Shown piece by piece: positions 15,206-37,800 of a stretch of 64,000 nt of DNA. The translations under genes and the position numbers were made by a program. The notes under the pieces were generated by a model, which was not told the origin of the DNA, made no database searches, and saw only the letters and a list, made by a program, of their open reading frames with translations. Within the stretch, counting starts at the first letter, position 1. Each line of letters opens with the position of its first letter. Location of the stretch: the NCBI GenBank assembly GCA_044356305.1, contig JBIKWM010000002.1, positions 132,053 through 196,052 of the forward strand, in the 5' to 3' direction. This DNA comes from Flavobacteriales bacterium (GTDB lineage Bacteria > Bacteroidota > Bacteroidia > UBA10329).

Positions 15206-15236
15206 GTTGTCGAGATGTTGATGGGGCGCTGCCCGG

Positions 15237-15614
15237 TCATTTGAAGTTGAACTGTCGCCTCGCTGCTCGCGATTCCATTATCATGTCTCTGAATCCAATG
15301 GGATCAGCAGCTACTGCTCTTAGGTATTCTGGGCCTTCCTTGTTCACAAACTGAGGAAAGCGGGAATTGACATTCTTGATGGCCTCATCTATCGAGGCAG
15401 CGTTGCTTATATGGTCCGGAGTCTGATAATCAGCTGGTATTGGCGCGCCAAGTACCTCTTTCACATACCCTTTGATGGTCGGGATGTCCGCAAGTGCCAT
15501 GCGGCCAATCAAACCCTGCTCGGCCTGCGTGTAAGGACGCACTTTATTCGGGGCAATCCCAGCCTGTGCCCAGCAGGAAACGGTGAAATGACACAACAAA
15601 AATGTTGCGATCAT
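15237..15614 (-). CDS. Hypothetical secreted protein (~125 aa) immediately upstream of giant adhesin gene
   Basis: ORF 15237..15692. Best start at internal Met giving signal peptide MIATFLLCHFTVSCWAQA. 31-bp gap to the giant gene start. No recognisable domain. Confidence 0.4.
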   Translation of the reverse strand: MIATFLLCHFTVSCWAQAGIAPNKVRPYTQAEQGLIGRMALADIPTIKGYVKEVLGAPIPADYQTPDHISNAASIDEAIKNVNSRFPQFVNKEGPEYLRAVAADPIGFRDMIMESRAARRQFNFK

Positions 15615-15772
15615 AAGCTTGAAACCTTGGCCAAGAGCGTACACGTTTTCCTTCCCCTTTCTTTTTCCAGAAAAGCCGCCAATAATAAGCATTTAATCGA
15701 AATGAAGATGTCGGAACAGGGACCAATTGTCGGTAGCACAAAACAGATCTCCGTGCGGATTAAATTCCCAGA

Positions 15773-15802
15773 CCAAAAAAAAAGGGGGCCAGTGGCCCCC
15801 TT
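15773..15802 (-). terminator. Intrinsic terminator downstream of 826-aa PPC protein gene
   Basis: Perfect hairpin gggggccaGtggccccc at 15784-15800 with A-run 15773-15783 (T-run on minus strand). Confidence 0.55.
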
Positions 15803-15828
15803 TCCTTTCCGATCCAATGAAATCAGCC

Positions 15829-18261
15829 TTAACGGGAGATGGAGATCCGCTTAGATGCAATCAGACCATCGGCCCCAACAATATTCAGTAGGTAGGTGCC
15901 CGCAGCCAGATCTACATTCAGATTCTGGCGGATGTTGGCCCCGCCCTGAAGCTGATGCGCAATGAGTTTGCGACCACTAAGATCTGTAAGCTCTGCCTGA
16001 ACATTGCCCTGTGCACCTTTCACCTCTATCGTCAGCTCTCCAGCCGATGGGTTGGGGTAAACAGAAAGCGAAACAGCTTCAACTGAATTCAGGCCTGTCA
16101 CTATCACAGTTACCGATTGGCAGTCCTGGTCGCTTCCGCACGCGTTGGTGGCTGTGAGGCAAACGGTATAAGTGCCATTGGCGGTATAGGTATGCGATGG
16201 GCTGGTTGAAGTGCTCGACCCCCCATCACCGAAATCCCATGCATAGGAGGTGGCACCGCCAGTGCTCTGATTGGTGAAGTTAACTGTTGGGTCGGCATTC
16301 TGGAAAGTATAGCCAGCGGTCGGACTATTGCCTGTACCTATAGTAACCGAATTGCTGCGCTGACAGCCATTGCTATCTGTGACGGTCAATGTGTGGGTTC
16401 CAGATGACACAGAGATTGACTGTGTGGTCTGACCACCCGGTGACCACAGGTAACTGAATCCTGTTCCGGCAGGACCACCAATGGTCACGGGATTCCCGTT
16501 GCATGAAGTTGGGCTAGAAGGACTGATGGTGGCATCCGCTACGTACTGGTTGTCGGTGAGCTGAACAAAGAGGTCAGCAGCAGCACCTTGGTAGCCATCC
16601 ACTTGAACATAGTAGACCTGTCCAGCGGTGAGGCAGGTCACTGTCACTTCAGACGAGAACTCGGTTGTCACAAAATTCGGGTTGTCGTCATTGGCGCCCT
16701 CAATAACTGCACCACCACTGGTTATGGCGATGCAGCTTGCCGCACTGTAAACCGCTAGCTGTGTGTCATACGAACCATCGGTGCTGATGGTCACATTACC
16801 CGATGCTGGGGCGACAAATGTGAACCATACCGAATTGTCTACAATCAGGTCGCCACCACACCAGCCATCCTGCGACTCGCAGTTGTTTGTGGTGTTAGAG
16901 CCTTGTGGTGGTACAGGCTCGCCCGCCTCAGCCGTGGCCCCTGTGGTGACGAAAGGCCCATTGGCTCCGAAACTGAGCGGGATAGCCGAACAGACATCAT
17001 CATTGGTGGCCACGACAGCGCCATAAACGCATATATCAAAAGTGGTTGTGGCCGGAATTCCAATGTTGTAGTCATAGACACGCACAAAAATCGTAGCTCC
17101 CGGGGTTGCTCCGGTAAGTACTCCGGCCTCTGCTTCCCCAGACAATGTGTTGTCGAGACAACCCAACGAGGTTAACGCCCCACATGTTCCATCAAACACT
17201 TCCAGAACCGCATCGAACGAGGTTGAGCCGAGCACTTCAATGTTGGCAGCACCATTGGCAGGTACTACAAATGAGTACCATACATCGTCATCGGCAGTAC
17301 CTGCGCAGCCCGCCTGACTCTCAGTGGCTGTGGTCACATCGCCTGATACGGGCACACACGATGTGCCTACCGCAAGGCTCGTTGCACCGGCACACTCGTC
17401 ATTGCCTGTGGCACTCGGGTCGTATACGCATATATCGAAAGTTGTGGTCAGGGGTGCTCCAGTGTAGTAGTCGTACACGCGCAGATAGATGGTCTCACCT
17501 GGCACCCCTCCTGTAAAGGCAGCGGACTCCAACTCGCCTTCCAATGTACCGTCTACACATCCTACGGAAACCAGAGTGGCACAGTCGCCAGTGAAGGCTT
17601 CGACAACCGCATCAAAATTGGCAGAGCCTTGAACATCAATGGTCGCATTACCCGAAGGAGGAACAACAAAGCTGTACCACACATCGTCATCGGCCGTTCC
17701 AGAACAACCTGCCTGACTCTCTGTGGCATTGGTGACATCTCCACTGGTTGGGGTGCAATTGACCGTCACAGATAATGAAGTGGCAGTGGCACACTCATCA
17801 TTGGTGGCCATAGGAGTCTCGTATACGCACATCAGAAAATCTGTGGTGGCCGCCACATCAGCGTCAAAGTCATAAACTCTATAGAAGATTGTGGTACCAG
17901 CCACACCGGTCACTAATACTCCCTCAACTTCTCCATCAACTGTCGCATCAATACAACCAATAGATGTCAAGGCCCCACAAGACCCTTCAAAGAATTCGAG
18001 CACAGCGTCAAATGCCGTGTTACCAAGCACTTCCACTGTGGTAGAGCCGCTCGCTGGCATCACAAAACGGAACCAGATATCATCATTCGCTGTGCCTGCA
18101 CAACCCACTTGGGACTGGGTTGCCCCGGCCACATCGTAGGTGCCGGGCACACAGTCAGCGTTTACCGTCATCAAGATTGAACCTGAACAGTTGTCGTTCT
18201 GGGCCGAAGCGCCAAATGCCAAAAGGCTTAAGGAGGCAAGAAGCGTAAATCTATTTTTCAT
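15829..18261 (-). CDS. T9SS-secreted protein with four PPC (pre-peptidase C-terminal)-like domains, PKD domain and type-A sorting domain
   Basis: Start at MKNRFTLLASLSLLAFGASAQ (ATG 18259-18261). Four ~125-aa modules NDxC..A..L....C....GDV..ATESQAGC.GTADDDVWYSFVVP..G...I.V.G...FDAV.E.F.G.C..L.S.GC.D......E.......G...IY.RVYDY......TFDICVY. YAWDFGDGGSST PKD motif. CTD LSVYPNPSAGELTIEV...GTYLLNIV. Confidence 0.8.
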   Translation of the reverse strand: MKNRFTLLASLSLLAFGASAQNDNCSGSILMTVNADCVPGTYDVAGATQSQVGCAGTANDDIWFRFVMPASGSTTVEVLGNTAFDAVLEFFEGSCGALTSIGCIDATVDGEVEGVLVTGVAGTTIFYRVYDFDADVAATTDFLMCVYETPMATNDECATATSLSVTVNCTPTSGDVTNATESQAGCSGTADDDVWYSFVVPPSGNATIDVQGSANFDAVVEAFTGDCATLVSVGCVDGTLEGELESAAFTGGVPGETIYLRVYDYYTGAPLTTTFDICVYDPSATGNDECAGATSLAVGTSCVPVSGDVTTATESQAGCAGTADDDVWYSFVVPANGAANIEVLGSTSFDAVLEVFDGTCGALTSLGCLDNTLSGEAEAGVLTGATPGATIFVRVYDYNIGIPATTTFDICVYGAVVATNDDVCSAIPLSFGANGPFVTTGATAEAGEPVPPQGSNTTNNCESQDGWCGGDLIVDNSVWFTFVAPASGNVTISTDGSYDTQLAVYSAASCIAITSGGAVIEGANDDNPNFVTTEFSSEVTVTCLTAGQVYYVQVDGYQGAAADLFVQLTDNQYVADATISPSSPTSCNGNPVTIGGPAGTGFSYLWSPGGQTTQSISVSSGTHTLTVTDSNGCQRSNSVTIGTGNSPTAGYTFQNADPTVNFTNQSTGGATSYAWDFGDGGSSTSTSPSHTYTANGTYTVCLTATNACGSDQDCQSVTVIVTGLNSVEAVSLSVYPNPSAGELTIEVKGAQGNVQAELTDLSGRKLIAHQLQGGANIRQNLNVDLAAGTYLLNIVGADGLIASKRISISR

Positions 18262-18345
18262 GTATTGGTTTTTAATGGTAGTTGGGATGAAAAAGGGAAA
18301 ACCGCCCATCGGTCAGAGGGGCGGTTGATTTTGTTAAGAAACAGG

Positions 18346-18663
18346 TCATTTCTTCTCAGCCAAAACGCCCTTGATCTCACCGATGAGTTTATTCAACTCA
18401 GCTTTTGCGGCTTCGGTGGCGTTCTGATTCGCGGCCAACTTGGCCTCATATCGCTCAAGATGTTTCTGAAGGTCCTCCTTTGTCATGGCCCGGTAACGGG
18501 ACATGCGTGCATCAGATTCGTTCACCACTGTTTTGGTCACGGGACCTTGGCTCTCCACCTTGGTCGTGGTCTTTTGGGCAGGAGCTGCCGTGCTGTTGTT
18601 CTGTGCGCTTGCTGACAAGCTGAAAAGCATCAGCGCAACGGGTACGAAAAAAGTCTTCTTCAT
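18346..18663 (-). CDS. Small secreted coiled-coil protein (105 aa), LTXXQ-like (Spy/CpxP-like) candidate
   Basis: Signal peptide MKKTFFVPVALMLFSLSASAQ. S/T-rich linker. MTKEDLQKHLERYEAKLAANQ helix. Terminator-like hairpin accgccc...gggcggt at 18299-18325, downstream of this gene's stop codon. Confidence 0.5.
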   Translation of the reverse strand: MKKTFFVPVALMLFSLSASAQNNSTAAPAQKTTTKVESQGPVTKTVVNESDARMSRYRAMTKEDLQKHLERYEAKLAANQNATEAAKAELNKLIGEIKGVLAEKK

Positions 18664-18715
18664 CTCGATTTCGTTAAGGTTTGTGTGGTTCTCGGAGTTC
18701 GTTCAAGTAGGTTTA

Positions 18716-18994
18716 TCACTCATCAGACGCACGGAGGCCCTTCAGGTGGCCCAGTCTGCGTTCGTAAGCAGCACTGTCAAAATTTGCGTCATTCCTATGT
18801 TCCTCAATGTGGGCCTCCAATTGTTTGATGGCCTTATTGATCTGTTCGCGTGTCATGCCCGAATGTCGCGGCTGAGGCGATTCCTCGGTCACCGCTACCT
18901 TGGCCTCGTTTGGGGCTGCAGAGCTGCCTTCCGATTGTGCAATGGCGCAAAACGAGATAAACACAAGGCTCGAAGAAAGAATCAGTTTCCGCAT
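18716..18994 (-). CDS. Small secreted coiled-coil protein (92 aa), paralog of 18346..18663
   Basis: Signal peptide MRKLILSSSLVFISFCAIAQ. Linker. MTREQINKAIKQLEAHIEEHRND. Confidence 0.5.
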   Translation of the reverse strand: MRKLILSSSLVFISFCAIAQSEGSSAAPNEAKVAVTEESPQPRHSGMTREQINKAIKQLEAHIEEHRNDANFDSAAYERRLGHLKGLRASDE

Positions 18995-19038
18995 GAGATT
19001 CGGATTAAGCGCCCAAATGTAGGACGAATTAGAGATGA

Positions 19039-20280
19039 TCAGGAAACTACCCTTCGCAAAGAGTCAGCTTGGGCGTTGTTGCGCGAAACGACTTGCTTGA
19101 ATCTCTCAATCAGGTCGGCAGGTATGGGCTCCGACCTTGGGGGCACCTCTTTTCTGTGATCAATCTGTTTGCCATTCTTCCAGAAGCGGAAACAGACATG
19201 AGGCCCGGTTGCAAGACCGGTGCTACCGACATATCCGATAACCTCGCCCTGCCGTACACGCACACCCTTACTTATGCCGCTCCTGAACTTGGACATGTGC
19301 AGATACTGGGTCTCGTATGTCTTGTTGTGCCTGATCTTCACATAGTTCCCGTTGCCCGAGGTGTAGCGTGCCTCTGATACTGTGCCATCGCCAACGGCCA
19401 TGATTGGCGTTCCGTGCGGGGCTGCGTAATCGGTGCCGAGGTGTGGCCGTAGGGTCTTGAGCACTGGATGGAGACGTCCCTTTGAAAAGGCACTGCTGAT
19501 GCGAGAGAATTTTAGAGGGGCCTGCAGAAAAGCCTTTTTGAGGCTCTGGCCATCGCTGGCGTAGTATCCCTTCAGCCCGTCAACTTCAAAATAATGTGCA
19601 TCGTTGGCCTTGCCACCGCTCTCAAAATTGGCGGCCCTAATCCTGCCAATGCCTACGCTCTGACCTTCCACCACATCCTCCTCGTACAGGGCAAAGAACC
19701 GGTCGCCTTTCTGTATGCGGTAAAAATCAACAGTCCATGCAAAAATCTCCGATAGCTCGACCGCGAGGGCGGGGCTGTGCCCGAGTTTCTCCAACTCGGC
19801 ATAGAGCGATGACCGTATCTCACCTTCAATGAGCCGCAACTTCCGCTCTACGGGTCTTTGTACCACATAGACATTCAGGCTGTCGCGTAAATCGAACACA
19901 ACGTACTCCTTATCGCTCGACTCATAAACAAAGCACTTGGCCACTCCTTCGGCATCCTTTGAGCAGAACACCGTTAGAGGCCTGCCTGCGGCCAATTTCC
20001 GCACATCCCAAACATCCTTTGATGCTTCGGCAATCTCATGCACGGTCTTGCCCTGAACACCGTACTTCTGTAAAATCTGAGAAAGGCTCTGGTTCTTCTG
20101 GACGTGGCCTTTAATGACAGTAAAGGAGTCGGTGCTTATCCCATACTCAAGTTGAGGCTCGGCCGCGAGCGTGTCACTTACCGGCACATTGTCCGGGTCA
20201 GGGGCCAAACAGCCCTGCCACGGTACCATAAGAAACAGCATGCTCAGGACGCTGCCGCAGGCAACAAGGGCTCTCAGCAT
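19039..20280 (-). CDS. M23 family peptidoglycan DD-metalloendopeptidase
   Basis: HLGTDYAAPHGTPIMAVGDGTV ... YLHMSKF ... GYVGSTGLATGPHVCFRF (HxxxD and HxH motifs of LytM/M23). Confidence 0.8.
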   Translation of the reverse strand: MLRALVACGSVLSMLFLMVPWQGCLAPDPDNVPVSDTLAAEPQLEYGISTDSFTVIKGHVQKNQSLSQILQKYGVQGKTVHEIAEASKDVWDVRKLAAGRPLTVFCSKDAEGVAKCFVYESSDKEYVVFDLRDSLNVYVVQRPVERKLRLIEGEIRSSLYAELEKLGHSPALAVELSEIFAWTVDFYRIQKGDRFFALYEEDVVEGQSVGIGRIRAANFESGGKANDAHYFEVDGLKGYYASDGQSLKKAFLQAPLKFSRISSAFSKGRLHPVLKTLRPHLGTDYAAPHGTPIMAVGDGTVSEARYTSGNGNYVKIRHNKTYETQYLHMSKFRSGISKGVRVRQGEVIGYVGSTGLATGPHVCFRFWKNGKQIDHRKEVPPRSEPIPADLIERFKQVVSRNNAQADSLRRVVS

Positions 20281-20281
20281 A

Positions 20282-21952
20282 TCAACGCAGAAGTGTCAGA
20301 AATCCCTGTCGGCTCTGGGTAGACCCATCCAGACCAGTCAAATTGAGCAGATAGTAGTATGTTCCCTGTTCCGCCTCGGCATTGCCATTTATTCGGCCGT
20401 CCCATCCCCAGTCACTCCCAGCGGTCAAAGTTCCTTCCATCTCATGCACCTTCAGCCCCCACCTGTTGTAGATCTTCATTGCGGCAGCAGTGTAACCATA
20501 GACGAAAGGTTCCCACAACCTGTTCATATCATCACCATTCGGGGTGAACACATTCGGCACTTCCAACATGGGCATGCCCTCAATATGAATGGATTGCATG
20601 GCCGTGTCGGCACATCCGAACTCATTGGTAACGATCAGGGTCACCACATAGGTGCCGCTGTCTGGAAAAACGTACTCGGCATCTTGACCATTAAGTATGG
20701 TGTCTCCCACCATCCACTGGTAGGTCGTGGCCTGGCCCTGGGCCGAAAACGAACCATTTAGGTAGGCGGCATCAATCAAAGCAGTGGCCGTGGGCACCGG
20801 ATTCACCGTGACTGACTGTGTCACGGTGTCTGTGCAGCCATCGGCCGTTATGAGCAATAGCGCTGCATCGTATTCACCAGCTTCGGCAAATAAATGGAAA
20901 TGGTCAATGGTGGAGGCCGTGGACCCATCACCATGATCCCAAGAATAGGTGGTCCCCTGTCCGAGAGCATTGCCCGTGAAGTCAAATGCTGTGGTATCGC
21001 CCGCACAGACCGGCCCGGTATTAAAGGCAGCGGTCGGCAGCGGGTCTATCACCACATCAAAACTGTCGGTGGCCGTGCACCCTGCCATGTCTGTTATGGT
21101 CTGAACTATGGTGTAGGTGCCAGGGGCGGCATAGGTCACATCCCCAGGGTCAATCTGGTCGGAGGTCTGGCCGTTGCCCAGATCCCAGTTCACTGCCGTC
21201 ACAGCTCCCAGAGCGCTATAGGACGCATCTGCAATGTTGATGGCCTCGCCAAGGCACACCTCATCATCGCTCAATGTGGCATCGGGCAGCATGGCCAGGC
21301 AAAACCTGTGCTCGTTGTTCAAACCGCCAGTACTGGCCGTGAATCCCCAATAGACCTCAGGATTGCCCGAAAAAAGGTCATTGACAATATCTGTGTTGAG
21401 TTCAACCCTCAGGTCGCTATCCATGTAGACGGAGAATGTGTTCGTGCCGGGCGCCCAGACCACGCGCATGAGATGTTCAGCCGCATCTTCAATATTGCCT
21501 CCGCTGGCAAGGGCTGTGACAGGCCCCATCAGGTTATTGGCCGTGCCATGGTCCACCACCCCATTGCTCATCAGTGCAATGTGGTCATAGACAGGGTCCC
21601 ATCCGTTCTGATAGGTGTCGACCTCCACGGCCAGAGACGGACTGATGCCCTCATAGCCCAGCCCACCACCTGTGCTGCCGATGCTGGTGCTTATAGGTTG
21701 CAACATGAATGCGATGCCATCGGCCCCGCCATCATTGGCCCCCAGGTACACATTGAATGTGAAATCAAAAGGGTCGGTCAGGTCTATCAGGTTCTCGTTC
21801 CAGACCGAGCCCCCCTGAGTGTTGATGGCCTGGGTGAGTCGGTAACAGTTGCATGAGAGCTGCACGGCATTCCCGTTCACAACGTATTGGGCCGTGCCTA
21901 TCAACGGAAGGGAAGAGAGGAGGACAAGCAGGAGTCTTTGCATATCATTCAC
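20282..21952 (-). CDS. T9SS type-B cargo: L-type (legume-like) lectin domain + PKD domains + gliding-motility-associated C-terminal domain
   Basis: Signal peptide. N-terminal lectin-like beta-sandwich (GGADGIAFMLQP..., VYWGFTASTGGLNNEHRFC). C-terminal VPNVFTPNGDDMNRLWEPF...GTYYYLL type-B CTD. Confidence 0.7.
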   Translation of the reverse strand: MNDMQRLLLVLLSSLPLIGTAQYVVNGNAVQLSCNCYRLTQAINTQGGSVWNENLIDLTDPFDFTFNVYLGANDGGADGIAFMLQPISTSIGSTGGGLGYEGISPSLAVEVDTYQNGWDPVYDHIALMSNGVVDHGTANNLMGPVTALASGGNIEDAAEHLMRVVWAPGTNTFSVYMDSDLRVELNTDIVNDLFSGNPEVYWGFTASTGGLNNEHRFCLAMLPDATLSDDEVCLGEAINIADASYSALGAVTAVNWDLGNGQTSDQIDPGDVTYAAPGTYTIVQTITDMAGCTATDSFDVVIDPLPTAAFNTGPVCAGDTTAFDFTGNALGQGTTYSWDHGDGSTASTIDHFHLFAEAGEYDAALLLITADGCTDTVTQSVTVNPVPTATALIDAAYLNGSFSAQGQATTYQWMVGDTILNGQDAEYVFPDSGTYVVTLIVTNEFGCADTAMQSIHIEGMPMLEVPNVFTPNGDDMNRLWEPFVYGYTAAAMKIYNRWGLKVHEMEGTLTAGSDWGWDGRINGNAEAEQGTYYYLLNLTGLDGSTQSRQGFLTLLR

Positions 21953-22051
21953 TTTTCGGGTGGCTAAATTAGACCTGTCAATCCTTCAAACGTTCATTTT
22001 ACCGAGATTGGCGGGGGGTGCCGCTAGGTCCATGGGTCTACCTTTGGCCCC

Positions 22052-30049: not shown

Positions 30050-30873
30050 ACCGCCCGGGCCGCCTCCGGCACCGCTGACAGCTCGTGCCTCAGTCCTTTG
30101 GCACCCGTCAGCTCGGCCCGTACACGGCCCACACGCAGCGGTGCCTCTATCAGCACCGGCACCCGGTTGTCATCGGCCGTGAACCACACGGTCATCTCGG
30201 CATCCTTGTCAAAAACACTCCCGGCTATCACCTCGGTCACCACGCGGTGGCACCGGTAGCGCGACCTTTTCAGCTTCACCTCCTCTAGCCCCACATAACG
30301 CACCATCAGGTCATACACCTTCTCATCCAGATACACCGACAGGCCCAGCCGCTCACCCTTTGCCAGGCTGTCCATGTCTATGCTGCGGGCGTTGTAGAAC
30401 ATGCTCACCGCATCGTACGTGCAGGCATGTATGGCTATGGTGTCCTTCACGCGCTCCACGCCATCGCGTCTGCGCCACGCCACTGCCCTCAGGGCCCTGT
30501 GGTCAAAGAAGTTGTTGTTGTACACCTTGAAACCCCCATCGTCCGTGTCGCGCAGATACTGCACAGGGCGCAGGTCCACTCTGCGCGCAAGGCTCTCAAA
30601 CCGGTCGCGCACCCTGTACACGATGTCGTAGCGCGGGGTGGTGCGCCCTATGGCCACAAAATGATACAGCGGCTGTCCGTTACGCGTCAGAGTGTCGGCC
30701 GTCAGGCTCACCGCCCCGGCATTGGCCCGTACTATTCCCCATCGGTAGCTTACCCGGTAGTACAGTTCCTCGCCAGCGCTGAACGCGGTCGGAAGCTGCG
30801 CACACACCTGCTGACCCAATGCCCTGACCGAGATGAGGGGCAACAGGGCCAGAAAGAAAAGAAGACGCATCAA
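30037..30873 (-). CDS. DUF3108 domain-containing protein
   Basis: Signal peptide MMRLLFFLALLPLISVRALGQ. YRVSYRWGIVRANAGAVSL... pattern typical of DUF3108. Converges on and overlaps the 3' end of the deacetylase gene. Confidence 0.5.
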   Translation of the reverse strand: MMRLLFFLALLPLISVRALGQQVCAQLPTAFSAGEELYYRVSYRWGIVRANAGAVSLTADTLTRNGQPLYHFVAIGRTTPRYDIVYRVRDRFESLARRVDLRPVQYLRDTDDGGFKVYNNNFFDHRALRAVAWRRRDGVERVKDTIAIHACTYDAVSMFYNARSIDMDSLAKGERLGLSVYLDEKVYDLMVRYVGLEEVKLKRSRYRCHRVVTEVIAGSVFDKDAEMTVWFTADDNRVPVLIEAPLRVGRVRAELTGAKGLRHELSAVPEAARAVQTR

Positions 30874-31763
30874 TGCAGCACAGGCCGCAATGCACGGCCA
30901 TCGGCAAATCGCAGCGAATACACACCCTGCCGAAGTCCACCAAGGTCAATGACATCTGCGCCCCCTTTCAGTTCAAACTGCGCCACGGTGCGCCCATGCA
31001 TGTCTGCAAGAGTGGCCATCCCGGCCGGGGCACCGTGCACATGCAGCACACCGTCAGTCGGGTTGGGGCCCATGCTCAGCGCCTGTGCGGCACGTGCATC
31101 ATCAATGCCCACCTGCAGCACGCAGGTCGACCCCTGCGTGGGCACATAGCTCACATCGCCCAGACCGAAACACACCAGATCATATCCGCACTCCAATATG
31201 GGCGGCACAGGCTCTATCAGACCCCCCGTGAAACCGATCCCCTCATACAGATATCCCGCATAGGACCCCTCTAGCGTAAACCGCCTGCGCATCGTCCCGC
31301 CCACCGAGAAACTGTCCACGGCCGTCACCAGAATATCAGTCCAATTGTTATTGTGGGTCAGTGGCAGATGGTCGCCCACCTGCAGGTCAAAGTCGTAGAG
31401 CAGCGTGTCTACTGTCCCGTTCCAGGTATACAGCCTACGCCCCTCCTGTCTGAGTAGGAAAGACGGCAACGGGTCGCTGAAGGTGAACGAACCGCTGCAC
31501 GATGGCGGCACCGGAGGCCCACCGAAATACTCGTAGGTCCCTATCCCCGAGCGGTACATCTTGTGGTACAGGTGGCCTCCTACAGTGCTGTCGCCTACAG
31601 GCATGTAGTTGTAATCAGAATTCAGGATGCACGGGTATGGCACTGCGCACATCGCACTTATGGTCCACACCGGACTGCCCTCAAAGTAGTCGGGTATCTG
31701 AGCCATGGCATGCGCAGACATGAGCAGCCAGGCCGAAAAGGTGACAAGCTTTTTCATCAGCAT
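30870..31763 (-). CDS. Hypothetical T9SS type-A cargo protein
   Basis: Signal peptide MLMKKLVTFSAWLLMSAHAMAQ. C-terminal MGPNPTDGVLHVHG...GVYSLRFADG sorting domain. Confidence 0.6.
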   Translation of the reverse strand: MLMKKLVTFSAWLLMSAHAMAQIPDYFEGSPVWTISAMCAVPYPCILNSDYNYMPVGDSTVGGHLYHKMYRSGIGTYEYFGGPPVPPSCSGSFTFSDPLPSFLLRQEGRRLYTWNGTVDTLLYDFDLQVGDHLPLTHNNNWTDILVTAVDSFSVGGTMRRRFTLEGSYAGYLYEGIGFTGGLIEPVPPILECGYDLVCFGLGDVSYVPTQGSTCVLQVGIDDARAAQALSMGPNPTDGVLHVHGAPAGMATLADMHGRTVAQFELKGGADVIDLGGLRQGVYSLRFADGRALRPVLH

Positions 31764-31772
31764 CTCAGATCA

Positions 31773-31940
31773 TGAATTGAACACAATGTTAAGGATGAAT
31801 GCCAGCAGCCCACCATAACCTATTACAGCCATGATGAACGACCGTGCAAAACCATGACCCCTGCTGCGCTGCACCAGGGCAGTGAGCAGCGCCAGCATCA
31901 CTACACCCACCGCCATCAGCCACCATTGCCATGCACCCAT
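31773..31940 (-). CDS. Possible small (55 aa) two-helix membrane protein
   Basis: Manual translation MGAWQWWLMAVGVVMLALLTALVQRSRGHGFARSFIMAVIGYGGLLAFILNIVFNS. Below the ORF-track length cutoff. Confidence 0.2.
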
Positions 31941-32206
31941 CCCCGACTGCGCAAATCGTACCCGACAAAACTATGAGGTATATGTTAAGCAGATCTCCCA
32001 CCGCCATTCCTCTAAGCGAACAGCCCATGGAATATCCGCACTGATTCTGAAATGACAGAAGCCGCTGTATCGATTGCCTTTATCCATGACCACCGCACTT
32101 GCGCGGTCTGCATCTCTTATGAAGTCACAGAGACTTCGAGCGTCATGTTCCGCACGGGTTATCCCGTGGAACGCATGAGCGAACGGGGGTTTATTAACCC
32201 ATTGCC

Positions 32207-33388
32207 CTAATTTTTTAGTAACCGGCTCCTTACCACCGAACCATCTCTCAATTTGACCGAAACAACATATACCCCCGAGTACAGGTGCTCAACATGGATT
32301 GTACTCTTCAAACCACTCACCTTCTGAACAGCCACCACTTTGCCCAATTGGTCTTGGATGGTGACATGTTCTATTTCAGAATTTGAGCCTGTAACATTGA
32401 ACTGTACTTGATCATTTGCTGGGTTTGGATAAAGTTCAAGGGTGTATTCCTCCGATTCTCGAATGCCGATGCTATTATCCTCACGCAATTCAACGGCATC
32501 GATGAAGTAAGAACTTGCTTCCCAACTATTGATAAGGGGTGGGTTGGAACTGACACGTTGAAAACTCAGTTCATCCTCTGAGCGGAAAACACCAATGGTC
32601 ATGAACTTCTCGCCACCATGAGCAATAAATTGCCCACTGATCTCAACCCAATTCACCCTGTCCTCCAACAAAAAACTATCCGGGCTCTCCACCTGTGGTT
32701 TGGCCACAATAAAACTATCAATAGGAAGAAAGCGGGTGGTATTCTCAGTAAACAGGGCCCCAATGTTGGCTACAGCGAAATTCACACTATCAGCAAGATT
32801 CACACGGCATTTGAACAGATAACCGTGGCCACTATTTAGGCTTTCAGGCAGTTCCATCCACAGGTATTCTCGGGCATTTGCCCAAAATGGGGTGTAGCAG
32901 GCAAAGTGGCCATAGGCTACCCCATCATATGCATCTTGATAACCATATTGATTGTTTGGCACCCCAAACTTTGGCCAATCCTCGTTGCTGCATGCATTGA
33001 AGTAATCAACTGACCCATAGGCTGAGCCCCAATACTCTGACACAGTTATCCAGCCTGGGCTAGAAGGGCATGCCGGGTCACCGTTTACATCCAATTCTAT
33101 CTCTTCAAAACTATAGTTCGGAATAATATTAGGCCCTAACTGGGCAATTGCGTTTTGTACATTAAACAATGTGACCCAAAGAAAGAAATATGTAGTGGTG
33201 GTTCTCCCCCTTTCGCTCGCGTCTCGCGAGTGAGAATTTCTCTGCCTCTGGCATTCTGAGAAAATTCTTTTCCATTGACGCGCCCGAGCGAGGCTGTGCG
33301 GTGTGCTGGCGCGTAGGGTCTTTCCCTCGCGCCTTTTATTCGGTGGTCTCCAGCCCACCCAGTGGCCAGTGTTCTCATGCCTCATCAT
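32207..33388 (-). CDS. Low-GC T9SS type-A cargo protein; 5' end runs into repeat unit, start codon uncertain (possible pseudogene)
   Basis: C-terminal ELYPNPANDQVQFNV...GVYVVSVKL sorting domain. Signal-peptide-like ...YFFLWVTLFNVQNAIAQ has no in-frame ATG/GTG. The ORF-track N-terminus MMRHENTGH... is repeat-derived. GC ~44% vs ~60% flanks. Confidence 0.55.
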   Translation of the reverse strand: MMRHENTGHWVGWRPPNKRREGKTLRASTPHSLARARQWKRIFSECQRQRNSHSRDASERGRTTTTYFFLWVTLFNVQNAIAQLGPNIIPNYSFEEIELDVNGDPACPSSPGWITVSEYWGSAYGSVDYFNACSNEDWPKFGVPNNQYGYQDAYDGVAYGHFACYTPFWANAREYLWMELPESLNSGHGYLFKCRVNLADSVNFAVANIGALFTENTTRFLPIDSFIVAKPQVESPDSFLLEDRVNWVEISGQFIAHGGEKFMTIGVFRSEDELSFQRVSSNPPLINSWEASSYFIDAVELREDNSIGIRESEEYTLELYPNPANDQVQFNVTGSNSEIEHVTIQDQLGKVVAVQKVSGLKSTIHVEHLYSGVYVVSVKLRDGSVVRSRLLKN

Positions 33389-33470
33389 CAGTTCCGTTCA
33401 CCAAAGGTCAACAATTATCTGAGTCACACACCATTCCGGCTCATCCAGATCCTTCCATTACGACCCCCTC
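33205..33470. repeat. Tandem repeat unit A copy 1 (~265 bp, hairpin-rich)
   Basis: ccccct-ttcgctcgcgtctcgcgagtgagaatttctctgcctctggcattctga...cattacgaccccctcc. ~90% identical to copies 2 and 3. Confidence 0.85.
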
Positions 33471-33736
33471 CCCCCCCTTCGCTCGCGTCTCGCGAGTGAG
33501 AATTTCTCTGCCTCTGGCATTCTGAAAAAATTCTTTTCCATTGGCGCGCCCGAGCGAGGCTGTGCGGTGTGCTGGCGCGTAGGGTCCTTCCCTCGCGCCA
33601 TTTATTCGGTGGGCTCCAGCCCACCCGGTGGCCAGTGTTCTCATGCCTGCTCATCATTCCGATTCACCAAAGGTCAACAATTATCTGATTCACACACCAT
33701 TCCAGCTCATCCAGATCCTTCCATTACGACCCCCTC
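33471..33736. repeat. Tandem repeat unit A copy 2
   Basis: Directly abuts copy 1 head-to-tail. Same internal palindromes (ctcgcgag, gagaatttctc, ggtgggctccagcccacc). Confidence 0.85.
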
Positions 33737-33900
33737 CTCACAAACAGCCAACAGCCATCTGTAAATCTGTACTCATCCATAATCCACATCAGCCTTAACA
33801 CCCGGTACCTTCCACCACACCCCTCCTCGCAAATAGCCATCAATCATTTGTATATCCGTACTCATCTGTAATTCGCATCAGCCCCTAACAGAAAACCCCG

Positions 33901-34167
33901 ACCCCCCCCTTCGCTCGCGTCTCGCGAGTGAGAATTTCTCTGCCTCTGGCATTCTGAAAAAATTCTTTTCCATTGGCGCGCCCGAGCGAGGCTGTGCGAT
34001 GTGCTGGCGCGTAGGGTCCTTCCCTCGCGCCATTTATTCGGTGGGCTCCTGCCCTCCCAGTGACCCGTGTTCTCATGCCTCATCATCAGTTCAATTCACC
34101 AAAGGTCAACAATTATCTGAGTCACACACCATTCCGGCTCATCCAGATCCTTCCATTACGACCCCCT
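33901..34167. repeat. Tandem repeat unit A copy 3
   Basis: Separated from copy 2 by a 164-bp spacer made of sub-repeat B. Confidence 0.85.
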
Positions 34168-34480
34168 CCTCGCAAATAGCCATCAATCATTTGTATATCC
34201 GTACTCATCTGTAATTCGCATCAGCCCCTAACAGAAAACCCCGACCATACCGGCCGGGGCCTTCCCTTTCACTCTCACCCTCACTTTCACTCTCACCCTA
34301 CCAAATGGCCAACAGCCAACGGCTATCAACCATTTGTATATCCGTACTCATCTGTAATTCGCATCAGCCCTAAACAGAAAACCCTCACCACACCGGCCAG
34401 GGCCTTCCCTTTCACTCTCACCCTCACTTTCACTCTAACAAATGGCCAACAGCCAACGGCTATCAACCATCTGTGTCTCC
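34168..34480. repeat. Mosaic of sub-repeats B/C (70-90 bp units)
   Basis: tcgcaaatagccatcaatcatttgtatatccgtactcatctgtaattcgcatcagcccctaacagaaaaccccgacc occurs at 33825 and 34159. ggccttccctttcactctcaccctcactttcactct...aaatggccaacagccaacggctatcaaccat occurs at 34258 and 34401. Confidence 0.8.
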
Positions 34481-34637
34481 GCCAACCCCACAAATCCCTG
34501 CCCCATCACCATAGGGCAACGGGTATTTGACGGGCCTCGGGCCATCAAAACCAGCATTATCCTCCTTTTTGGTAGCCCCTCTTCACAGAAAACTGTCGGA
34601 GGGCACCAGATTGCTGAAAGCCGCGCCATCACTGCTT

Positions 34638-34770
34638 TCGTACGATCCATAATTGCTATCGCACGATCCATAATTGCTGTCGCACGTCTCATAATTGCTG
34701 TCGTACGATCCATGATCGCTGTCGTACGTATCGCACATTGCTGTCGCTTGCTTCCCGAATGCTGTCGTTC
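34638..34770. repeat. Six degenerate 21-bp direct repeats (iteron-like) upstream of the sensor-phosphatase gene
   Basis: cgtacgatccataattgctat / cgcacgatccataattgctgt / cgcacgtctcataattgctgt / cgtacgatccatgatcgctgt / cgtacgtatcgcacattgctgt ... spaced 21 bp, ~70-200 bp upstream of 34839. Confidence 0.7.
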
Positions 34771-34838
34771 TCCGCATCTCCCCTGACACTCTACTCCGCA
34801 CAATCATTGACTCTCGCCCCGGCCCCGGCCTACATCGC

Positions 34839-37800
34839 ATGCAGCGCGTGGCGCAGCCCAAGGAGACCCATAACCTAAAGCGCAGCGGTGCCGTATCAGC
34901 GCGCTGCCCTGACCAGGCCCTCTTCATCCGCGCCTTGCGAAACCTACACGGCATAGCGGCCCTTGTGGCCGCCCTTCTGCTGGCCCCATCGGTCACCGCA
35001 CAGACATACGACATCCGCACCTTCGGCATTGACGAGGGTCTGCCGCAGGCCGAGGTCAACCACATGATCCAAGACAGCCGCGGCCACCTCGTAGTGGCCA
35101 CCAACGGGGGCGGTGCGGCCCTCTTTGACGGGTCAGGGTTTGCCGTGATAGGAATGGCCGAAGGACTGCCTGACGTCAAGGTGACCCACGTGGCCGCAGG
35201 CCCTGACGGCTCCCTTTGGCTTGCACACCCGGGGCACGGCCTGAGCAGGGGTACCGGCCAGGCCCCGCTCAGCTTCAGTGCTCTGGCCGGCCTTCCGAGC
35301 CAACAGGTGAACACCCTACTGGCCGATGGCGACAGCGTGCTCTGGGCCGGAACCTTTGGTGGGCTGTGCGCTGTGCGCGGCAAGGACCTGCGCCTACTGA
35401 CCAAGGCCGATGGTCTTCCGTCTGACGACATACGCGCCATATGCCGCGACCGGGCGGGTGCGCTCTGGGTGGGCACTTACGGGGGCGGTGTGGCCCGCCT
35501 CGACAACGGCACGTTCGTGCCCTTCGGCATCGAGGCCGGACTCACTGACGGCTTCATCTCCGATCTGTTCCTGGCCCGTGACGGCCGCATGCTGGTGGCC
35601 ACTGCCTCGGGCGTGCTGGTGTGGGACGGCCAATCGTTCGCACCCCTGCGCAATGCAGGGGCCGTGCGTGTCAATGCCATGGCCGAGGATGCACAGGGCA
35701 ACATCTGGCTCGCCACCCCCGAAGGGGCCCTCATGGTGGGCGACCTGGGCCGCGAACTGCTCTCTGACCGCAACGGACTGCCCCACCCCGAGGTGCTCAG
35801 CATCTGTATAGACCGCGAACAGAACATCTGGTTCGGCACGCGCAAGGGCCTGGCCCGGCTCGCACACAGGGCCATGGCCCACTTTGCCCCGCAGGGCCGC
35901 CCCGCCCTCGAGCCGAGCGCCTTTGGCCGGTTGCCCGATGGCACGCTGGTGCTCACCGACCGCACTGGCGGGGCGCTGCGTATTGACGGCAATGCATTTA
36001 TTCCCATTGTCAACGATGCCGATGTGGCCAGCCACCCGTTCAGCAGCCTCGCCACCGGGGCCGATGGCAGGCTATGGCTGGGCACCTCCGATTTCGGTGG
36101 TCTCTTCAGCATCAGCGATGGCAAGGTGAGCATCTATTCTGATGAGCCCGGGCTGATGGACAACAGCATCTCGGCCCTGGTCACTGGGGCCGACAGCCGC
36201 CTCATCATCGGTACCCCGGGCGGACTGAGCTATTTCGATGGCGACCGGTTTGTGCCCGGCCCGTCCGATCTGGGCCACATCACCGCCCTCACTCCCACCG
36301 TGGGGTCCGATGTGCTTGTAGGGACACTTTCGGGGGCCGTTCTGCACCTGCATGCCGACCGCGCAGACACGGTACACAGCGCCAAGGTGCCCATCACGGC
36401 CCTGGTGGCCATGCCCGATGGGCGCAAGGCCATAGGCACCGATGGCGAGGGCGTGGTGGTAATTGGCAAAGAGAGCCGTTTCGCAGTGACCGAGGCCGAT
36501 GGCCTCACCTCGCGGTTTGTGCGCAGCCTTGTGTGGGACGGCCGCCACCTGTGGGCAGGCACGGCCAAAGGCGTGTCGCGGCTTCTCCTCGGTGCCGATT
36601 CGGCCCAAGTGCTCGCCATCACCCAGGCGCACGGATTCAGCGGCAGCGAGTGTCTGCCGGGCGCACTGATGACCGATGGCGATATGCTGTGGGTGGGCAC
36701 CATCAAGGGCGTCACACGCATCAACAAATCGCTGGTCGGGCGCGATACCGTCCAGCCTGTGGTGTTCCTCACATCGGTTCAGCTATTGCTGCAGGAGGTG
36801 AACAGCGGGGCCGGCACCTCCGCCCTACCCCACAGCCTCGACCTCGGCCACGATGACAACCACCTGCGATTCAGTTTCAAGGCCATCTCCCTTACCAATC
36901 CGGAGCTTATCACCTATCGTTGGCGACTGGTGGGGTATGATGTCGAATGGAACGAGGGCAGCAGCGGGGTGGCCAATTATCCGAACCTGCCTCACGGAGA
37001 GTATGTGTTTGAAGTGGTGGCCTGCAACAGCGATGGCGTGTGTACCGAGGCTCCGGTGCAATTCAGCTTCCGCATCCGCCCTCCCTTCTGGAAAACGGTC
37101 TGGTTCTATGTCGTTGTGGCCTTTGCCGTCATGACCACCGTGGTGCTGTGGGTGCGCTGGCGCGAGCGCAGGCTGCTGGCCCTCAACCGCGAACTGGAGG
37201 ATAAGGTGGACCTGCGCACCCGCGAGCTGAAGGAACAGCGCGACCTGGTGGAGGAGAAGAACAGGCACATCACCGAAGGGATAGAGTATGCCCGCAACAT
37301 CCAGATGGCCATTCTGCCCTCGGCTTCCGAGCTCGATAGGGCGTTCAGTGAACATTTCGTGATCTACATGCCCAAAGACACCGTGGGGGGCGACTTCTAT
37401 TGGGCCTATACCAGCGGCACGGTCACATGGGCCGTGGCAGCCGACTGCACCGGACATGGTGTGGCAGGGGCATTCATGAGCATGATAGGCAGCGACCTGC
37501 TCAACCAGCTCATCATTGAGCAGGGGGCCACATCGCCTGCTGCGGTGCTGCGAGAGCTCGACCGCGGCATCAAACTGGCCTTTGCCCAGAGCGCCAAGGA
37601 GTTTGAGAACGATCAGGGCATGGACGTGGCCATGGTGCGCCTTGACCGCGCCTCCCGACACATCACATTTGCAGGGGCCATGCGGCCATTGCTGGTGGTG
37701 GGCCAAGAGGTGAACGAGACCGAGGGCGACCGGCACACCATCTCCAGTGCCGAACATGGGCCGGTCGCCTTCACCGACCGCTCCATCACTCTGGCCGAAG

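What the first reader, a model, noticed from the sequence alone, without database searches (positions are those of the whole stretch)
32207..33388. Low-GC T9SS cargo gene with its N-terminus embedded in the repeat unit
Coding GC is ~42-48% over 32220-33180 against ~60% for the neighbours, and codons are AT-biased. This makes it a candidate horizontally acquired gene. It has a clear T9SS sorting domain and a signal-peptide-like segment (YFFLWVTLFNVQNAIAQ), but there is no in-frame ATG, GTG or usable TTG upstream of that segment. The only open continuation runs 83 codons into repeat unit A copy 1. Either the repeat inserted into and decapitated the gene (pseudogene), or the repeat supplies an unusual 5' end, or there is a sequencing frameshift.
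Basis: partly seen in the sequence, partly recalled or inferred. Interest (0 to 1): 0.6.

Follow-up and report, generated by a model that had tools for sequence, protein, structure and literature searches.

The report
Beheaded low-GC secreted-protein gene
This is a foreign-looking gene for a surface or secreted sugar-binding-type protein that has lost its start codon where it abuts a block of repeated DNA; the long "N-terminus" read from the repeat is almost certainly not real protein, so this is an ordinary truncated gene copy.

Summary
Window 32207-33388 (-) is a 393-codon ORF with a type A T9SS sorting domain. Its genuine part (32207-33202) is the lowest-GC 990-nt stretch in the window: 44.7% against a mean of 55.6%. 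The only in-frame starts are ATG 33388/33385 and GTG 33358 inside repeat A1, and TTG 33169 inside the hydrophobic core.

All aligned homologues (20) carry an ordinary 16-30 aa signal peptide ending in an invariant Gln. None has the 62-residue extension, so the repeat begins where the start codon and n-region should be. The same junction occurs in three other metagenome assemblies, so it is not a sequencing error.

The same locus in another sample carries a deeply diverged allele (domain dS about 2.6). That allele has an intact MRH... start overlapping an upstream T9SS gene. Low-GC cassettes of this kind occur in two flanking contexts.

Repeat A is local to this array and varies in copy number (2 or 3 units). 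It contains REP-like and terminator-like hairpins.

Best reading: a recently 5'-truncated, probably non-exported copy of a horizontally exchanged T9SS cargo cassette. The ORF is otherwise intact, so a working fusion with a long basic extension cannot be excluded. Interest is low to moderate.

The parts
32207..33388 (-). Mechanical ORF of 393 codons. This is the version held from NCBI as P0041. JGI calls the 320-aa TTG version instead (P0001, P0039, P0040).
33203..33388 (-). Sixty-two-codon 'N-terminal extension' lying wholly inside repeat A1. It is very basic (16 K/R, 5 D/E), has no homologues, and is judged not to be genuine protein sequence.
33143..33202 (-). Signal-peptide remnant TTTTYFFLWVTLFNVQNAIA: h-region and AxA c-region, lacking the initiator and n-region. 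Cleavage would expose Gln83 (33140-33142), an invariant column in the family.
   Evidence: Q-rule, PMC5837995
33167..33169 (-). In-frame TTG (codon 74), used as the start in the JGI gene calls. It lies inside the hydrophobic core, so its product would have no signal peptide.
32453..33142 (-). Cargo domain, a beta-jelly-roll (CBM4/CBM16/galactose-binding-like). It belongs to a Bacteroidota family with no Pfam model that matches it.
32231..32434 (-). Type A T9SS C-terminal sorting domain. Its 3' part is the stretch shared with the paralogous allele and is where flanks are exchanged.
32182..33202 (-). Extent of the low-GC cassette remnant. Similarity to the L009 and L091 contexts ends at about 32182, roughly 25 nt past the stop codon.
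33203..33471 (-). Repeat A copy 1, abutting the gene.
33469..33737 (-). Repeat A copy 2. The L091 contig has two A units where the window has three; its gene-proximal unit is a hybrid.
33904..34169 (-). Repeat A copy 3.
33308..33333 (+). Hairpin GGCGCG-N14-CGCGCC followed by TTTTATT, terminator-like on the + strand. It recurs at 33574-33599 and 34006-34031. Homologous sequence lies immediately 3' of homologous cargo genes in L011 and L004-L006.
33216..33230 (+). REP-like hairpin CTCGCG-TCT-CGCGAG, also at 33482-33496 and 33914-33928. The surrounding 50 nt are 82% identical to inverted copies that flank a RAYT remnant in L007.

Best explanation
The gene is a recently 5'-truncated copy of a low-GC T9SS cargo cassette: a jelly-roll, CBM-like domain followed by a type A C-terminal sorting domain.

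The cassette sits in a strain-variable spot of a roughly 56% GC Bacteroidota chromosome. A locally amplified, REP-like repeat array now begins exactly where the initiator codon and the positively charged n-region of the signal peptide should be. The h-region, the AxA cleavage site and the mature protein remain intact.

The 62 extra codons are read-through into a stop-poor repeat, not ancestral protein.

As encoded, the protein has no canonical Sec signal peptide. It therefore most likely cannot reach the periplasm and the T9SS, and is a young pseudogene or silent cassette.

Shown here: the truncation relative to homologues, the reality of the junction, the compositional anomaly, and allele and context variability. 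Inferred: loss of export and function, and the order of events (rearrangement or insertion at the 5' end, then unequal crossing-over changing the repeat copy number).
For: All 20 aligned homologues have 16-30 aa signal peptides ending A/G/S-Q. The alignment places a gap of about 60 residues opposite the extension. No hit in 5.8 billion proteins covers more than 84% of the query, and none covers the N-terminus. A tblastn of the 62 aa against 89 fetched loci hits only the same allele.

The junction sequence ...GCGAGCGAAAGGGGGAGAACCACCACTACATATTTC... is identical in three other contigs from different samples.

L003 is the same locus: 60/60 identity in all but two windows (59/60) from 32306 to 30086. 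It holds a diverged allele with start ATGAGGCAT overlapping the stop of an upstream T9SS gene. L009 shows that partner to be a 1061-aa beta-helix T9SS protein.

The domain has been under long-term purifying selection (dN/dS 0.09, dS 2.6). GC is extreme for the window.

Differences between repeat copies show no synonymous bias in the extension's frame: 2-4 synonymous against 4-7 non-synonymous, similar in all three frames.

The Bacteroidetes -7 box TAnnTTTG sits just upstream of several genes in the window, including the downstream operon at 31966. None lies on the minus strand in 33197-34838.
Against: The remaining ORF is fully intact and keeps every invariant family residue. Copies from four samples differ by only one to three substitutions in 996 nt, so no decay is visible and selection since the truncation cannot be measured.

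The frame from ATG 33388 is open into the gene, and the h- and c-regions are preserved. Export with a long n-region is therefore physically conceivable.

The repeat ORF begins MMRH, and the nearest intact allele begins MRH (a shared GATGAGGCAT). This could mean the true start survives upstream of an in-frame insertion.

The absence of a promoter rests on one short consensus whose total count in the window is no higher than chance.
Confidence: 0.6

Rival explanations
1. Functional fusion. Translation starts at ATG 33388 or 33385 in repeat A1. The 62-residue, strongly basic segment acts as an unusually long n-region. The preserved h-region and AIA|Q site still direct Sec export and cleavage, so normal mature cargo is delivered to the T9SS. 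Array copy number (2 or 3 units) might modulate expression.
For: The frame is open with two ATGs. The h- and c-regions and the invariant Gln are intact. The extension has net charge about +11, which suits the positive-inside rule. The ORF shows no decay in four samples. The version held from NCBI is the 393-aa product.
Against: No homologue has such an extension. The repeat is open in several frames on both strands, so an open frame is not informative. There is no coding signature between copies. Pfam reported only Por_Secre_tail for the 393-aa ORF, with no match in the extension. The twin-arginine motif was checked by eye only and is absent. The sigma-70-like -10 element overlaps the ATGs themselves, and no Bacteroidetes -7 box lies upstream.
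Confidence: 0.2
2. In-frame insertion. This variant concerns mechanism and is compatible with either functional outcome. The original start, ATG(ATG)AGGCAT (MRH), survives at 33377-33388. A composite element of about 174 nt (core hairpin module plus REP-like module) inserted into the n-region after codon 4. The block of upstream sequence, start and insert was then tandemly duplicated through G-run microhomology to give A2 and A3.
For: The 10-nt identity GATGAGGCAT matches the start of the nearest intact allele, and MAFFT aligns MRH with MRH. The only parts of repeat A with relatives elsewhere (L004-L006, L011, L007) lie downstream of that ATG. The insert length is a multiple of three. Copy boundaries sit in G-runs.
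Against: Ten nucleotides may match by chance. The 5' third of repeat A has no similarity to the region upstream of allele 2, which there is coding sequence of another gene. The candidate direct repeat GAGAAC at both ends would restore the wrong frame (read from the sequence). No intact allele 1 was found for comparison.
Confidence: 0.25
3. Assembly or sequencing artefact. A frameshift or a mis-join in a repeat hides the true start.
For: The junction lies next to tandem repeats and a G5 run, a typical place for assembly trouble. L001 and L002 end inside the array.
Against: Base-for-base identical junctions occur in the window, L001, L002 and L091, from different samples. L091 spans the whole array from the 21-nt repeats into the gene. 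No ATG exists in any frame between 33230 and 33170.
Confidence: 0.03
4. The 320-aa TTG-initiated product, as in the JGI annotation, is the real and functional protein.
For: TTG 33169 is the only in-frame start close to the mature protein. JGI gene calls use it in four contigs.
Against: It would begin MFNVQNAIAQ..., with no hydrophobic core. A T9SS cargo cannot then cross the inner membrane (established knowledge of T9SS). No homologue starts there.
Confidence: 0.04

Closest known systems
Type A T9SS cargo proteins of Bacteroidota (Sec signal peptide + functional domain + TIGR04183/PF18962 C-terminal domain)
   Same: The C-terminal domain scores above both curated cut-offs and is modelled as a beta-sandwich. 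The family has an invariant Gln after the signal-peptide cleavage site, as in the Bacteroidetes Q-rule (PMC5837995). The window holds several other T9SS cargo genes.
   Different: This copy lacks the initiator and n-region of the signal peptide. Its jelly-roll cargo domain is not matched by any Pfam or NCBIfam model.
CBM4 / CBM16 / galactose-binding-domain-like beta-jelly-rolls
   Same: The AlphaFold2 model (pLDDT 92.6) matches CBM4 of CbhA (3k4z, E=9e-7), CBM16 (2zey, TM 0.61 on the target), the Epf adhesin domain and the sugar-binding domains of GH2 enzymes.
   Different: Sequence identity is only 9-13%. No ligand or binding residues can be inferred, so the resemblance is of fold only.
REP / BIME elements and their RAYT transposases
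   Same: Each repeat A unit carries two GC-rich hairpins. The 3' 50 nt are 82% identical to an inverted pair in L007. That pair flanks a fragment matching NF047646, REP-associated tyrosine transposase, at E=6e-5. This is the classic RAYT-between-inverted-REPs layout (PMC3116915).
   Different: The unit is 266 nt, tandem and direct. It occurs only in this one intergenic region of the 64 kb. No RAYT motif was found in the window. A 23-mer of the unit is absent from 185,579 representative genomes.
5'-truncated gene remnants at rearrangement or insertion junctions, whose ORFs gene callers extend into neighbouring sequence
   Same: The start is lost at a repeat boundary. Two annotation sources disagree on the length (393 aa against 320 aa).
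   Different: There are no further disabling mutations. The remnant keeps the complete h-region, cleavage site and mature protein.
Extended signal peptide regions (ESPR) of autotransporters
   Same: They offer a conceptual precedent for export with a long N-terminal extension ahead of the h-region (own knowledge).
   Different: Pfam reported no family other than Por_Secre_tail for the 393-aa ORF. The phylum and secretion system differ, and the extension here is repeat DNA without homologues.

Membership tests
T9SS type A cargo | C-terminal sorting domain matching PF18962 / TIGR04183 above the curated cut-off | tested here: met
   45.3 bits against 27; 45.9 bits against 23. The AlphaFold2 model shows a C-terminal beta-sandwich at residues 252-328.
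T9SS type A cargo | N-terminal Sec/SPI signal peptide (initiator, basic n-region, h-region, AxA site) to reach the periplasm | tested here: not met
   The h-region and the AIA|Q site are present. The only in-frame starts lie at least 52 residues upstream of the h-region, in the repeat, or inside the h-region itself. All homologues have a 16-30 aa signal peptide. No signal-peptide predictor was available.
T9SS type A cargo | Host encodes a T9SS | tested here: inconclusive
   The window holds other cargo with type A and type B (CHU_C) C-terminal domains. The core machinery genes were not looked for and may lie outside the window.
T9SS type A cargo | Demonstrated secretion and removal of the C-terminal domain | not testable with these tools
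   This needs proteomics or genetics.
Pseudogene (5'-truncated) | Loss of the ancestral start relative to homologues | tested here: met
Pseudogene (5'-truncated) | Further disabling mutations or relaxed selection | tested here: not met
   The ORF is intact and retains all invariant residues. Only one to three substitutions separate copies from four samples, too few for a dN/dS estimate.
Pseudogene (5'-truncated) | Absence of a promoter or of expression | tested here: inconclusive
   No TAnnTTTG lies on the minus strand in 33197-34838. A sigma-70-like match overlaps the ATGs. No expression data are available.
Horizontally acquired or exchanged cassette | Composition deviating from the host | tested here: met
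   It is the lowest 990-nt GC window of the 64 kb, at z about -3.1. Its GC3 of 0.45 compares with 0.50-0.79 for other ORFs. Family genes are usually only about 2% below their flanks, against 11% here.
Horizontally acquired or exchanged cassette | Presence, absence or replacement between close relatives, and occurrence in different contexts | tested here: met
   L003 is the same locus with a different allele. L009 and L091 show a different downstream context.
Horizontally acquired or exchanged cassette | Adjacent mobility genes (integrase, transposase) | tested here: not met
   No mobility-gene family was among the hits for the 20 larger ORFs scanned between 15.8 and 51 kb; five of them had no hit. 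A DUF2281/PIN toxin-antitoxin pair flanks the paralogous cassette in L009.
REP/BIME (RAYT-mobilised) repeats | Short GC-rich imperfect palindromes in intergenic DNA | tested here: met
REP/BIME (RAYT-mobilised) repeats | Many dispersed copies per genome | tested here: not met
   The hairpins and units occur only in 33203-34169 within the 64 kb. The rest of the genome was not available.
REP/BIME (RAYT-mobilised) repeats | A cognate RAYT gene flanked by inverted REPs | tested here: inconclusive
   This layout was seen only in an unrelated AT-rich contig, L007. No RAYT motif was found in the window.
Integron gene cassette / attC | attC with R''/R' core sites (RYYYAAC ... GTTRRRY) 3' of the cassette, and an integron integrase | tested here: not met
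   The core-site consensus is absent from the element (read by eye). No integrase is nearby. There is no Rfam match.

The most novel reading that the evidence does not exclude
The repeat unit is a portable 5' module. It would supply a start codon and a long, basic N-terminal extension (in effect an extended signal peptide) to a T9SS cargo cassette that arrives without its own start. Unequal crossing-over in the array (2 or 3 units between strains) would tune or switch expression. Together with flank exchange through the conserved sequence coding for the C-terminal domain, this would amount to a cassette-swapping system for surface proteins.
Probability: 0.1. Interest if true: 0.55.

Novelty: new member of a known kind. 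Interest (0 to 1): 0.3.

Why it matters
The main value is for annotation. The 393-aa protein held in public databases carries 62 residues of translated repeat DNA, and the 320-aa alternative lacks a signal peptide. Neither should be used as a family representative.

Biologically, the locus illustrates how T9SS cargo repertoires vary between strains. The cassettes are low-GC. Deeply diverged alleles occupy one site. The conserved sequence coding for the C-terminal domain acts as a recombination handle. Repeat arrays mark the variable boundary.

The cargo family itself is large (at least 565 loci in Bacteroidota representative genomes), confidently modelled as a CBM-like jelly-roll, and has no family model. 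A Pfam or NCBIfam entry would be easy to build.

Tried and rejected
- Rfam scan of 31500-35500 at E<=1: no match, so repeat A is not a known RNA family.
- Scan of representative genomes for a 23-mer of the repeat: nothing. The metagenome scan for a 20-mer found only two AT-rich contigs with a REP-like hairpin.
- Copies of the repeat, or an inverted copy of the gene's 5' end, elsewhere in the window (testing a shufflon or invertible-promoter idea): none.
- Remnants of the upstream partner gene (the beta-helix T9SS protein of L009 or L004) in the array: none.
- RAYT motif in the six-frame translation of the window: none.
- Integrase or transposase within about 13 kb: none. An integron attC reading was rejected because there are no core sites.
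- Twin-arginine or lipoprotein signal in the extension: no RRxFLK next to the h-region and no lipobox Cys (by eye).
- Target-site duplication GAGAAC at the two ends of the putative insert: removing it restores the wrong frame, so it is treated as chance.
- Coding signature in the extension from differences between copies: too few changes and no frame preference.
- dN/dS since the truncation: only one to three substitutions, so uninformative.
- Pfam on the L007 fragment: no hit. NCBIfam gave the RAYT match.
- Exact look-up of the DUF3108 neighbour and of the 393-aa product: not on record. The source organism was not identified beyond Bacteroidota.

Full report
**Observation.** The ORF at 32207..33388 on the minus strand (393 codons) ends in a type A T9SS sorting domain. 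PF18962 scores 45.3 bits against a cut-off of 27, and TIGR04183 scores 45.9 against 23. Across the gene, 300-nt windows have 43.7-48.7% GC, while the flanking genes have 57-67%. The part supported by homology (32207-33196) has GC 44.7% and GC3 44.8%. It is the lowest of all 990-nt windows in the 64 kb (mean 55.7%, sd 3.5%). Its GC3 is lower than that of all 44 other ORFs of at least 100 aa.

In frame, the only ATG/GTG/TTG codons upstream of the mature protein are ATG 33388, ATG 33385, GTG 33358 and TTG 33169. The last lies inside the hydrophobic core YFFLWVTLF. Three copies of a unit of about 266 nt occupy 33203-33471, 33469-33737 and 33904-34169. Sixty-two codons of the ORF lie in copy A1.

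**Where the ancestral start was.** A search of 5.8 billion proteins returned 38 relatives. None covers more than 84% of the query. In an alignment of 20 relatives, every one has a 16-30 residue signal peptide ending A/G/S-Gln, followed by NL(I/V)PNxSFE. The Gln is invariant, as expected from the Bacteroidetes Q-rule for signal peptidase I substrates (PMC5837995). The window's sequence TTTTYFFLWVTLFNVQNAIA|Q aligns with the h- and c-regions of those signal peptides. The 62 residues before it face a gap in all homologues.

A tblastn of those 62 residues against all 89 fetched loci finds only the same allele. The repeat boundary (33203|33202) therefore falls within a few codons of where the initiator and n-region should be.

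**The junction is real.** The identical junction sequence occurs in JGI contigs L001, L002 and L091, which come from different samples. L091 spans from the 21-nt repeats through the array into the gene. L090 matches from 33188 but starts below the junction. Gene callers disagree: JGI uses the TTG (320 aa), while the version held from NCBI is the 393-aa ORF.

**A variable, low-GC cassette.** Contig L003 is the same locus, at 60/60 identity in all but two windows (59/60) from 32306 to 30086. Upstream of the C-terminal domain it is only about 70% identical. Its allele (P0002, 72% amino-acid identity) has a normal start, ATGAGGCAT... (MRHLVRY...), overlapping the stop of an upstream T9SS gene. Between the two alleles the cargo domain has dS about 2.6 and dN/dS 0.09, while the C-terminal domain has dS 0.08. 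These are old, selected paralogues or alleles joined by recombination in the sequence coding for the C-terminal domain.

L009 carries that second allele behind a 1061-aa beta-helix T9SS protein. It is followed by a DUF2281/PIN pair and then host genes of about 57% GC. The cassette gene there is 41% GC.

L091 carries the truncated allele and the array, but with the L009-type downstream flank. All four flank combinations therefore exist, switching inside a 73-nt stretch identical in all of them.

The family has at least 565 loci in GTDB representative genomes. The best 80 kept are almost all Bacteroidota MAGs, many of them labelled Flavobacteriales, with a median flank GC of 37%. Family genes are normally about 2% below their flanks, against 11% here. 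Horizontal origin from a lower-GC lineage is a reasonable inference.

**What the protein is.** An AlphaFold2 model built on 36 sequences is confident (pLDDT 92.6). It matches CBM4, CBM16, the Epf adhesin domain and the sugar-binding domains of GH2 enzymes. The protein is a jelly-roll, carbohydrate-binding-like domain plus the beta-sandwich C-terminal domain. No Pfam or NCBIfam model matches the jelly-roll.

**What the repeat is.** The repeat occurs nowhere else in the window, and one 23-mer of it is absent from 185,579 representative genomes. It matches no Rfam family. It is a mosaic.
- A central module of about 85 nt contains GGCGCG-N14-CGCGCC followed by TTTTATT. On the + strand it reads as an intrinsic terminator. 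Related sequence lies immediately 3' of the homologous genes in L011 (97% over 36 nt) and L004-L006 (77% over 70 nt), there in the sense orientation.
- The last 50 nt carry the hairpin CTCGCG-AGA-CGCGAG. They are 82% identical to an inverted pair in L007. That pair flanks a fragment matching the REP-associated tyrosine transposase model NF047646 at E=6e-5, which is the REP/RAYT layout (PMC3116915).

Copy number differs between strains. L091 has two A units, and the one next to the gene is a hybrid of A2, A3 and A1. L001 and L002 show the same hybrid. The array is thus a local, recombining cluster of REP-like and terminator-like palindromes, not a gene.

**Is the extension translated?** The repeat is open in several frames on both strands, so an open frame carries little weight. 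Differences between the three copies show no synonymous excess in the extension's frame. The sigma-70-like match in the unit has its -10 element on the ATGs themselves. The Bacteroidetes -7 box TAnnTTTG lies just upstream of several genes in the window, for example at 22039, 31966, 42482 and 58639. It is absent from the minus strand of 33197-34838. This is weak evidence, because the motif's total count in the window equals chance.

Against a dead gene, the ORF keeps all invariant residues. Copies from four samples differ by only one to three substitutions in 996 nt, so neither decay nor selection since the truncation can be seen.

**A possible insertion scenario.** The repeat ORF starts ATGATGAGGCAT (MMRH) and the intact allele starts ATGAGGCAT (MRH). 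MAFFT aligns them. All parts of the unit with relatives elsewhere lie downstream of that ATG. An in-frame insertion of about 174 nt after codon 4, followed by tandem duplication through G-run microhomology, is therefore possible. However, ten nucleotides may match by chance. The 5' third of the unit resembles nothing upstream of allele 2. A candidate 6-nt direct repeat would restore the wrong frame.

**Verdict.** The best explanation, at confidence 0.6, is a recently 5'-truncated copy of a horizontally exchanged low-GC T9SS cargo cassette. Its apparent N-terminus is read-through into a repeat array, and as encoded it is probably not exported. A working fusion with a long basic n-region is given 0.2. 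A sequencing artefact is effectively excluded. No recombinase, integrase or transposase family was among the hits for the ORFs scanned around the locus, from about 15.8 to 51 kb. No inverted copy of the gene's 5' end exists in the window. The finding is an ordinary kind of event in an uncharacterised family, and interest is low to moderate.

Noticed in passing
window 32235-32310 (3' end of the C-terminal-domain coding sequence); loci L001, L003, L009, L091: All four combinations of upstream part (repeat array + allele 1, or beta-helix gene + allele 2) and downstream flank (56-aa/297-aa/DUF3108, or DUF2281/PIN) exist. They switch inside a 73-nt stretch identical in all. L001 and L009 come from one sample, and L003 and L091 from samples with neighbouring JGI numbers. 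This looks like reciprocal homologous exchange, possibly a chromosomal inversion, between two paralogous cargo loci through the conserved coding sequence of the C-terminal domain.
   Followed up: partly
window 33203-34169; L091 599-1296: Repeat A copy number is polymorphic. The window has three units and L091 has two. In L091 the unit next to the gene is a hybrid of A2, A3 and A1, which indicates unequal crossing-over or gene conversion within the array.
   Followed up: yes
window 34610-34768: A 21-nt tandem repeat (ATTGCTGTCGCACGATCCATA, 6-7 units) reads on the minus strand as a heptad peptide repeat (GSYDSNY)n in a small ORF ending ...SSDGAAFSNLVPSDSFL. L091 has one more unit, an in-frame change. 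Whether it codes is unknown.
   Followed up: partly
window 33731-34481: A second repeat family of 56-166 nt (units at 33731-33794, 33820-33903, 34163-34246, 34179-34344 and 34322-34481) is interleaved with repeat A. It includes CTCACC-like hexamer runs. The whole 1.6-kb divergent intergenic region is built of repeats.
   Followed up: no
L007 179-537 (and L008 4004-4054): In an AT-rich metagenome contig, a degenerate C-terminal fragment of a REP-associated tyrosine transposase (YIHQNPVRAGL; NF047646, E=6e-5) is flanked by inverted hairpin sequences. These are 82% identical to the 3' 50 nt of repeat A, although the host has a very different GC content.
   Followed up: partly
L011 3464-3524; L004 7583-7650: A terminator-like hairpin element homologous to the centre of repeat A sits directly 3' of the two closest non-allelic homologues of the cargo gene. 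The element may therefore travel with cassettes of this family.
   Followed up: partly
window 30870-31763 (-) and 31770-31940 (-): Downstream are a 56-aa hydrophobic ORF and a 297-aa protein with a weak T9SS C-terminal-domain match (20.5 bits, below the cut-off), followed by DUF3108. The group has its own TAnnTTTG box at 31966-31973 and is conserved at near-100% identity in L003.
   Followed up: no
window 6962-21952: Further T9SS cargo genes lie here. One is a 2747-aa ORF with a C-terminal-domain-like end. An 826-aa protein has GBD_T9SS_assoc, PKD and Por_Secre_tail domains. A 556-aa legume-lectin/PKD protein has a type B CHU_C domain. The region is rich in secreted proteins.
   Followed up: no
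L004 19-7499: A related organism has a tandem set of four low-GC (44-45%) T9SS genes: a 1420-aa beta-helix/PKD protein, then proteins of 321, 370 and 334 aa, two of them members of this family and the last two with overlapping stop and start. The set lies next to a RidA gene of 51% GC. This is a plausible picture of the intact ancestral arrangement.
   Followed up: partly
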